Positions 32,834 to 33,845 of a stretch of DNA of 64,000 bases are shown here, in pieces. Every line of letters begins with the position of its first letter. Within the stretch, counting starts at the first letter, position 1. The notes below the pieces were generated by a model. It made no database searches, was not told the origin of the DNA, and saw only the letters and a program-made list of their open reading frames with translations. Origin of the DNA: Squalus acanthias (taxonomy: Eukaryota); NCBI GenBank assembly GCA_030390025.1, contig CM059431.1, positions 102,860,001-102,924,000 on the forward strand, written 5' to 3'. The position numbers and the translations under genes were made by a program.

Positions 32834-33845
32834 GTGTCAGCCATGGCTCAGTGGGCAGCACTCTCATCTTTGAGTCAGAAGGTCGTGGGTTCAAGTCCCA
32901 AGCTTGGGACTTGAGCACAAAATCTAGGCTGACACTCCCAGTGCAGTACTGAGGGAGTGCCGCACTGTCGGAGGGGCAGTACTGAGGGAGCGCTGCACTG
33001 TCGGGGGGCAGTACTGAGGGAGCGCTGCACTGTCGGAGGGGCAGTACTGAGGGAGCGCCGCACTGTCGGAGGGGCAGTACTGAGGGAGCGCCGCACTGTC
33101 GGAGGGGCAGTACTGAGGGAGCGCCGCACTGTCGGAGGGGCAGTACTGAGGGAGCGCCGCACTGTCGGAGGGGCAGTACTGAGGGAGCGCCGCACTGTCG
33201 GAGGGGCAGTACTGAGGGAGCGCCGCACTGTCGGAGGGGCAGTACTGAGGGAGCGCCGCACTGTCGGAGGGGCAGTACTGAGGGAGCGCTGCACTTTTGG
33301 AGGGGCAGTACTGAGGAAGCACTGCACTGTCGGAGATTCAGTACTGAGGGAGCGCCGCATTGTCGGAGGGGCAGTACTGAGGGAGCGTGGCACTGTCGGA
33401 GGGGCAGTACTGAGGGAGCGCCGCACTTTTGGAGGGGCAGTACTGAGGGAGCGCCGCACTGTCGGAGGGGCAGTACTGAGGGAGTGCCGCACTGTCGGAG
33501 TGGCAGTGCTGAGGAAGCGCTGCACTGGCGGAGGGGCAGTACTGAGGGAGCGCCGCACTGTCACAGGTGCTGTCTTTCGGCTCGGACGTTAAACGGTATG
33601 TCTGCTCTCTCAGGCGGTCGTCAAAGATCCTGTGCTGCTATTTTGAAGAAGTGCAGGGGAGTTATCCCCAATATTTATCCCTCAACCAACCTCAGTGAAA
33701 CAGATTATCTGGTCATTATCACATTGTTGTTTGTGTGGGAGCTTGCTGTGCGTAAATTGGCTGCCGCGTTTCCTACATTACAACAGTGACTACGCTTCAA
33801 AAAGTACTTCATTGGCTGTAAAGCGCTTCGGGACATCCTGAGGTC
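32834..33845 (+). mobile_element. Deu-domain SINE with an internal 33-bp array
   Basis: tRNA head at 32834-32900, then array, Deu core and most of the tail. Confidence 0.92.
32943..33562 (+). repeat. 33-bp minisatellite, 19 units
   Basis: Same unit as 21999-22624; includes a run of identical units. Confidence 0.97.

What the first reader, a model, noticed from the sequence alone, without database searches (positions are those of the whole stretch)
32834..33845. SINE-VNTR composite: three SINE copies carry a 19-20 unit 33-bp array at the same site
Seen: ordinary copies (25812, 36635, 58067) have one hairpin, CAGTGCAGTRCT-gaggg-AGYGCYGCACTG, between the tRNA head and the Deu core. In three copies this segment is amplified as GGGGCAGTACTGAGGGAGCGCCGCACTGTCGGA to 19, 19 and 20 units (21999, 32943, 40465), all on the + strand. 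Two retain head, Deu core and tail. Variant units recur across arrays (ggaga..cagtact, cgccacactg, cgcattgtc, actgttgga). Inference: the near-equal lengths and shared variants suggest an array-bearing subfamily that moves as a unit, loosely analogous to the VNTR of primate SVA. The alternative is a hairpin that repeatedly seeds minisatellites homogenised by gene conversion. I cannot tell whether this has been described.
Basis: partly seen in the sequence, partly recalled or inferred. Interest (0 to 1): 0.78.

Follow-up and report, generated by a model that had tools for sequence, protein, structure and literature searches.

The report
Shark SINE-embedded 33-bp minisatellite family
Three copies of a common shark-type jumping element carry a 33-base stretch repeated 19-20 times, and the repeat likely arose once, reached different sub-lineages of the element and then kept growing and shrinking in place, rather than travelling as one fixed-length unit.

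Summary
In detail: arrays of 19, 19 and 20 x 33 bp lie at the same site in three of the 11 SINE copies that keep this region. The 'fixed ~20-mer subfamily' reading is weak. The two complete array copies are 16.9% apart outside the array (single-unit pairs 7-12%) and carry different tail haplotypes. Variant units are not colinear between arrays, and each array has private internal duplications. One '19' is only a lower bound, because that copy is truncated. A tree neither groups them nor rejects a clade (p-AU 0.23). Independent origin from each host's hairpin also fails. All arrays share one phase, a junction G (53 of 55) absent from single-unit copies, and a non-CpG majority unit identical across loci. 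The same array occurs in all 4 organisms laid, and as translated repeats in sawshark and whale-shark gene models. Best reading: a single-origin, multi-locus SINE-derived minisatellite, seeded long ago and turned over in place. Spread by gene conversion between copies stays open. The kind is known (squamate sSats, B1/Alu minisatellites); ten searches found no paper on this family. This scan noted it earlier elsewhere in the same genome (e1-9919488).

The parts
32834..32940 (+). tRNA-like SINE head of the focal copy (A32), with A-box and B-box motifs
   Evidence: ARAGORN and Rfam find no tRNA, so the head is called from promoter motifs and similarity to the other copies
32939..33564 (+). 19-unit 33-bp array; units 4-10 identical; double variant G29T+C31T at units 11 and 15 makes two TTTT runs
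33565..33845 (+). SINE body (Deu-like, by recall) and partial tail, tail haplotype II, cut about 35 nt before the normal end
21932..21997 (+). 5'-truncated head of copy A22 (B box only)
21996..22624 (+). 19-unit array with a 6-unit internal repeat pattern (units 10-11 resemble 16-17); no body or tail follows, so the count is a lower bound
40355..40461 (+). head of copy A40
40461..41120 (+). 20-unit array; private A7G in 7 units (block 9-12); C20T in units 14-20; unit 1 has the G10 state common in single-unit copies
41121..41436 (+). body and full tail of A40, tail haplotype I
25812..26270 (+). single-unit copy, tail haplotype I
36635..37106 (+). single-unit copy, tail haplotype I
58066..58532 (+). 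single-unit copy, tail haplotype I
16625..17091 (-). single-unit copy, tail haplotype I
18703..19112 (-). single-unit copy, tail haplotype II
45134..45558 (-). copy with the left hairpin arm deleted, intermediate tail haplotype
3200..3535 (+). 5'-truncated single-unit copy inside a composite
59976..60286 (-). 5'-truncated single-unit copy inside the second copy of that composite

Best explanation
This is a multi-locus 33-bp minisatellite inside a shark-type tRNA SINE: its unit likely arose once, was likely carried to new loci long ago by source copies that already bore an array, and each array has since gained and lost units in place. Step 1 (inferred): the segment between two imperfect 7-bp direct repeats 33 bp apart (GTGCAGT / GTGCCGT) was duplicated once and acquired a G at the junction. 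Step 2 (shown: arrays on two tail haplotypes; inferred: the route): array-bearing source copies of more than one sub-lineage retrotransposed, the tails having been exchanged between SINE lineages. Step 3 (shown: private duplicated variants, no colinearity, units more uniform than flanks in 2 of 3 copies; inferred: the mechanism): slippage or unequal exchange turned the units over locally, favouring uniform tracts and so keeping the founder unit. The two overlapping quasi-palindromes and G-runs of the unit may promote this (untested). No host function is implied.
For: Single origin: junction G in 53 of 55 internal units, where single-unit copies have T; A10 in 56 of 58 units vs 2 of 7 single-unit copies; no non-CpG difference between the three array majorities, while 7 of 7 single-unit hairpins differ. 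Old and widespread: contigs of 4 of 4 organisms laid show go-back joints and loose ends continuing into further G-junction units. A Pristiophorus japonicus gene model holds about 4.5 translated units with the G-junction codon, and a Rhincodon typus model about 3.5 units in another frame. In-place turnover: adjacent units of A40 share variants more than shuffled order (13 vs 6.2, p 0.0015); G29T+C31T sits twice in A32 only; A7G sits in 7 units of A40 only; shared variants peak at lag 6 in A22; colinearity between arrays p 0.14-1.0. Array units are less diverged than their own flanks at non-CpG sites: A32 13/459 vs 33/355 (p 1e-4), A22 9/459 vs 5/63 (p 0.02). Different hosts: tail haplotype I in A40 and 4 single-unit copies; haplotype II in A32 and 5 other copies. 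Module exchange between shark-type SINEs is described in PMC5499810, and TRs carried by transposition of LTR12 in PMC3389668.
Against: Only three arrays were studied at sequence level; no genome was held. In A40, array and flank divergence do not differ (28/486 vs 32/391, p 0.18), and adjacency clustering is not significant in A22 or A32, nor for non-CpG variants alone in any array. Flank divergence is measured against a majority that mixes subfamilies, which inflates it. Seeding on two tail haplotypes needs an extra step (tail exchange) that gene conversion does not need. Units of different arrays are 4.6-8.3% apart where flanks are 15.9-16.9% apart; local turnover explains this only if it is biased to the majority unit. 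The near-equal lengths are not explained: three within one unit has chance 0.002-0.015 under flat length ranges, though the two complete arrays alone give 0.05-0.14. G3A, always with a second change at position 4 or 5, occurs in all three arrays at units 11-14 and could be an inherited variant unit.
Confidence: 0.47

Rival explanations
1. The array spreads sideways: breaks at the hairpin of resident single-unit copies are repaired from array-bearing copies elsewhere, so the array is copied into old SINE insertions (ectopic gene conversion), and the same process keeps units uniform between loci.
For: Same unit on two tail haplotypes. Units between arrays are 2-3.5 times closer than flanks. A40 unit 1 keeps G10, the state in 5 of 7 single-unit copies, while its other 19 units have A10 (one case only). 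Array-bearing flanks are more diverged (7.9-9.3%) than 9 of 10 non-array copies. Homogeneity within and between loci is reported for sSats (PMC10702118).
Against: No before/after orthologue was seen: contigs of organisms B and C cover the unique flank but stop at 32587 and 32751, short of the SINE. Variants are mostly private to an array (23 of 35 distinct variants). Net gain of ~19 units by ectopic conversion has no precedent in the papers I read.
Confidence: 0.27
2. One reading: one array-bearing subfamily retrotransposes as a ~1.1-kb composite with about 20 units, SVA-like.
For: Lengths 19/19/20; shared unit and some shared non-CpG variants (7 of 29). A40 is 1082 bp, has A and B boxes, a full tail and no T4 run, so a Pol III read-through is possible. 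AU test does not reject a clade.
Against: A32 and A40 share one derived body state (a CpG site also seen in three non-array copies) and none in the head; different tail haplotypes; no colinearity; one length is a lower bound; 0 of 200 bootstrap trees group them.
Confidence: 0.13
3. Each array arose independently from its host's own hairpin by slippage, or by repeated jump-back of the reverse transcriptase at insertion, with the junction G imposed by the mechanism or selected because only G-junction units are unstable.
For: Non-monophyletic-looking hosts. The G closes a second short stem across the junction and raises the G4Hunter score (mean 0.76 vs 0.42 with T in silico).
Against: Plain slippage at the 7-bp repeat would give a T junction. 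No host-specific fixed change is seen in 3 of 3 arrays, against 7 of 7 single-unit hairpins that differ (chance about 0.001 at 8% divergence). In silico, the G junction folds less stably overall than T (-19.5 vs -22.3 kcal/mol for four units). Excess of palindrome-perfecting variants is marginal (7 of 29, p 0.04; not significant within transitions or transversions).
Confidence: 0.1
4. The equal lengths (or the arrays) are an assembly artefact.
For: All three are 626-660 bp; no read spanning an array was examined.
Against: No N in 64 kb. Each array has its own non-repeating order of variant units. Tandem units exist in independent runs of four organisms.
Confidence: 0.03

Closest known systems
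SINE-derived satellites (sSat1-3) of squamates; Vassetzky, Kosushkin, Ryskov 2023, PMC10702118 (parts 1-4 of 5 read)
   Same: Tandem arrays of one internal SINE segment at many loci, shared between related species, homogeneous within and between loci; unit number varies at orthologous loci.
   Different: sSat units are 67-290 nt and usually keep only one SINE end; both ends kept is called uncommon there. Here the unit is 33 bp, 2 of 3 arrays keep head and body, and the host is a shark-type SINE.
Mouse B1-derived (GGCAGA)n VNTR family (Bois et al. 1998) and Alu-derived minisatellites (Jurka and Gentles 2006); seen only as table rows, reference entries and passages in PMC9659126 and PMC3389668
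   Same: Minisatellites that expand from a fixed site inside dispersed SINE copies; short flanking direct repeats as the start point.
   Different: Those are described as starting at or after each insertion; here the unit carries shared derived bases across loci and species.
SacSINE1 / SacSINE1-CM / LmeSINE1 Deu-SINEs (PMC5499810 parts 1-2 and passages; PMC2746220, PMC3747384, PMC4824008 passages)
   Same: tRNA-type head, about 450-460 bp in single-unit copies (SacSINE1 is 463 bp), shark-like host; body resembles the Deu domain by recall.
   Different: PMC5499810 has no occurrence of 'tandem', 'minisatellite' or 'hairpin' in its main text. The consensus itself could not be fetched for alignment.
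Hominid SVA (PMC7697779, passages) and LTR12-borne tandem repeats (PMC3389668, passage)
   Same: GC-rich VNTR (here 65-67% GC; SVA units 35-50 bp) inside a retroelement, carried by transposition and variable in length.
   Different: SVA is a composite of unrelated parts (CT hexamer, antisense Alu, VNTR, HERV-K10 piece, poly-A), moved by L1, and the VNTR is one of its canonical parts. Here the repeat is the SINE's own sequence, most copies have one unit, and a single array-bearing lineage was not shown.

Membership tests
SacSINE1-type Deu-SINE | tRNA-derived head with A and B boxes | tested here: met
   A- and B-box motifs in 7 of 8 copies examined; A22 has B only. No tRNA call by ARAGORN or Rfam.
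SacSINE1-type Deu-SINE | length near 463 bp | tested here: met
   Four full single-unit copies measure 447-461 bp to the start of the terminal T/C run; 463 bp from PMC2746220.
SacSINE1-type Deu-SINE | Deu domain by alignment to the published consensus | not testable with these tools
   Supplement of PMC5499810 not readable; no motif hit in 2 supplement files of PMC4824008, one file not searched. The likeness is recalled.
SacSINE1-type Deu-SINE | 3' tail shared with an L2-type partner LINE | not tested
   No partner LINE 3' end was aligned.
SacSINE1-type Deu-SINE | cartilaginous-fish host | tested here: inconclusive
SINE-derived satellite/minisatellite (sSat kind) | tandem unit is an internal part of a SINE, four or more middle units | tested here: met
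   17-18 middle units in 3 of 3 arrays; unit maps to the single-copy segment.
SINE-derived satellite/minisatellite (sSat kind) | many loci, homogeneous within and between loci | tested here: met
   3 loci in 64 kb; unit distances 3.5-9.9% within and 4.6-8.3% between arrays; present in 4 of 4 organisms laid.
SINE-derived satellite/minisatellite (sSat kind) | subtelomeric enrichment | not testable with these tools
   No genome held.
SVA-like mobile VNTR composite | array-bearing copies form one mobilised lineage | tested here: inconclusive
   Markers and distances speak against it; AU test does not reject it.
SVA-like mobile VNTR composite | composite of parts from unrelated elements | tested here: not met
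   The repeat is the SINE's own segment; head and body match single-unit copies.
SVA-like mobile VNTR composite | target-site duplication around array-bearing copies | tested here: inconclusive
   No flanking repeat above chance in 0 of 3 array copies, but also 0 of 5 non-array copies, so the test cannot separate them.
SVA-like mobile VNTR composite | full-length transcript and recent insertion polymorphism | not testable with these tools
   Only contigs were available; no RNA run on record held the stretch.

The most novel reading that the evidence does not exclude
A selfish minisatellite that 'homes': a 33-bp array born once in a shark SINE and copied by ectopic gene conversion into resident single-unit copies across the genome, settling near 20 units and kept uniform across shark lineages. 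It would be a repeat that parasitises a SINE family without retrotransposing.
Probability: 0.2. Interest if true: 0.75.

Novelty: new member of a known kind. Interest (0 to 1): 0.42.

Why it matters
If general, a few percent of some shark genome regions (3.0% of this window) is one GC- and CpG-rich minisatellite held in a SINE scaffold. Every array has an internal control, its own SINE flanks and single-unit siblings, and orthologues exist in related species. That makes an old question directly testable: whether TE-borne tandem repeats are carried, re-seeded or converted between loci. In practice, the array has open frames on both strands and has entered at least two public shark gene models, so it matters for annotation, repeat masking and assembly.

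Tried and rejected
No whole genome is held, so no genome-wide histogram or tree. Pattern scans found nothing in metagenome contigs (2 scans), viral contigs or prokaryote genomes. Orthologue test: contigs of organisms B (528 bp, 21 differences over 488) and C (830 bp, 61 over 797) match the unique flank but end before the SINE; organism A's run gave no cover there (55% read); unit number in orthologues stays unknown. That lay covered only flank, head and two units. Summed contig depth over the units is 15-39 times the adjoining bin in all four runs, but it is no copy number. The tree of non-array sequence has 9 of 10 inner branches open. The TSD search was null for all 8 copies. The search of protein representatives returned 150 listed hits, nearly all unrelated 11-residue repeats; two unnamed ones (P0031, P0123) look like decayed translations and were not used. 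Pfam on 45 of the 62 long frames (array and CT-repeat frames among those left out) found only two RT fragments; short exons were not excluded. A coding role for the array frames is rejected: frames shift at indels and differ between loci. Hairpin-templated correction of variants is not established. Ten paper searches found no description of this array. The library lacks most subscription papers, Repbase and Dfam were not available, and unread supplements of PMC5499810 could bear on it. PMC10620051, PMC10468316 and PMC8010645 (passages only) do not describe it in the passages seen.

Full report
Observation. The three arrays are real: period 33, with 19.0, 18.8 and 20.0 copies at 21998-22624, 32943-33562 and 40465-41123. 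Cut in register they give 19, 19 and 20 units; 12 of 58 units equal the consensus. I call them A22, A32 and A40. BLAST and motif scans find 11 SINE copies that keep the region behind the head: 3 arrays, 7 single-unit copies and 1 with the left arm deleted. A40 is complete (1082 bp). A32 lacks about 35 nt of tail. A22 lacks the A box, body and tail, so its count is a lower bound. Arrays make up 3.0% of the window.

Host element. Full single-unit copies are 447-461 bp with A- and B-box motifs, close to the 463 bp given for SacSINE1 (PMC2746220, passage). The body looks like the Deu domain by recall only; I could not align to the published consensus. The only named proteins that match the translated repeat are shark gene models. 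Pfam on 45 long frames found two RT fragments and no other family.

Is there one array-bearing subfamily? Outside the array, A32 and A40 differ at 58 of 344 non-CpG sites (16.9%); A22 differs from each at 10 of 63. The 15 pairs among six near-full-length non-array copies differ by 7.0-12.3%. A32 and A40 share one non-majority body state, at a CpG site that three non-array copies also show, and none in the head. Three linked tail sites split the 13 readable tails (2 further regex hits were spurious and dropped) into haplotype I (5 copies, with A40), haplotype II (6 copies, with A32; one read across an indel, one differing at the third site) and an intermediate type (2 copies). The ML tree of 13 copies is nearly unresolved. 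None of 200 bootstrap trees groups the three, yet the AU test does not reject a clade (p 0.227; 0.225 for A32+A40). So markers and distances speak against one lineage, but the formal test is inconclusive.

Were the arrays inherited as a block? No colinearity of variants was found between any pair (six tests, p 0.14-1.0). Of 35 distinct variants 12 are shared between arrays, and 5 of these are CpG transitions. Private variants repeat inside single arrays: A7G in 7 units of A40, and G29T with C31T at units 11 and 15 of A32; shared variants peak at lag 6 in A22. Adjacent units share more variants than shuffled order in A40 (p 0.0015), but not in A22 or A32, and not for non-CpG variants alone. At non-CpG sites the units diverge from their consensus by 2.0%, 2.8% and 5.8%, and the flanks from the family majority by 7.9%, 9.3% and 8.2%; the contrast is significant for A22 and A32 but not A40. 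Units have therefore been duplicated in place, and today's lengths need not be the inserted lengths. Three lengths within one unit would be rare under flat ranges (0.002-0.015), but the two complete arrays alone give 0.05-0.14. The near-equality stays unexplained; chance or a length equilibrium are both open.

Did each array arise from its own host? The unit lies between imperfect 7-bp direct repeats 33 bp apart (read from the sequence). Slippage there would leave T at the junction, but 53 of 55 internal units have G. Position 10 is A in 56 of 58 units and in only 2 of 7 single-unit copies. All three array majorities are identical at non-CpG sites, whereas each of 7 single-unit hairpins differs at 1-2 such sites. 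This points to one origin of the unit. The unit is not the full hairpin: it drops the outer left arm and folds weakly. In tandem, a second short stem forms across the junction, and the G lengthens a G-run (G4Hunter mean 0.76, max 1.2). A role for these structures in instability is inference.

Beyond this window. Contigs of four runs from four coded organisms were laid on flank, head and two units. All four show joints that go back about one or two units, and loose ends that continue into further G-junction units. Three of the four also list loose ends that continue into the normal body, as single-unit copies would. A Pristiophorus japonicus HGH1 model begins with about 4.5 translated units whose Cys-Pro codons fit the G junction, and a Rhincodon typus TRIM16-like model with about 3.5 units in a frame blind to that base. 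These two sharks belong to deeply split groups (my own knowledge), so the array is old or has spread widely. Orthologous flank was seen in two organisms, but no contig reached the SINE.

Mechanism. One origin, old flanks, two tail haplotypes and local turnover fit best with array-bearing source copies that seeded loci long ago, followed by gain and loss of units in place (0.47). The main rival is ectopic gene conversion that writes the array into resident copies (0.27). It explains the two haplotypes and the between-locus uniformity without extra steps, and A40's first unit keeps a host-type base, but that is one case. The fixed ~20-unit composite gets 0.13, independent origins 0.10 and artefact 0.03.

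Comparison and verdict. It works like the squamate sSats (PMC10702118, parts 1-4 read) and the B1- and Alu-derived minisatellites (seen through PMC9659126 and PMC3389668, passages). It differs in its short unit, in keeping both SINE ends, and in a unit shared across sharks. It is not an SVA-type composite, since the repeat is the SINE's own sequence (SVA features from PMC7697779, passages), although seeding by retrotransposition would make it partly SVA-like in behaviour. Ten searches of the held library found no description of it; repeat databases could not be checked. New member of a known kind, interest 0.42, with a testable and more striking 'homing minisatellite' case at about 0.2.

Noticed in passing
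window 2773-3602 (+) and 60722-59918 (-): Two inverted copies, about 88% alike over ~830 bp, of a composite: ~420 bp of another repeat (near an RT fragment at 60895-61350) joined at the same base to a 5'-truncated SINE, with shared sequence beyond its 3' end. They share 16 derived body states and are the only supported pair in the tree (99/99). This is either a chimeric mobile unit or an old duplication.
   Followed up: partly
P0001 (Pristiophorus japonicus HGH1 model) and P0003 (Rhincodon typus TRIM16-like model): Both N-termini are translations of this 33-bp array in two different frames: probably false exons in gene models, possibly exonisation.
   Followed up: partly
window 45464-45430 (-): A SINE copy in which the left arm of the same hairpin is deleted, so the site also suffers loss.
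   Followed up: no
window 33845-34071: The A32 tail is cut at a T-run and followed by a ~200-bp fragment of another repeat present at several places in the window.
   Followed up: no
window 12834-13109: An unrelated 39-bp minisatellite, 7.1 copies, 89% matches.
   Followed up: no
window 6329-6776: A long CT-rich low-complexity tract with nested periods.
   Followed up: no
window, 13 SINE tails: Three linked tail haplotypes (5, 6 and 2 copies) point to at least two source lineages of this SINE and a possible recombinant type.
   Followed up: partly
window 50117-50695 (-) and 60895-61350 (-): Decayed reverse-transcriptase fragments (Pfam RVT_1, E 5e-08 and 3e-06).
   Followed up: no
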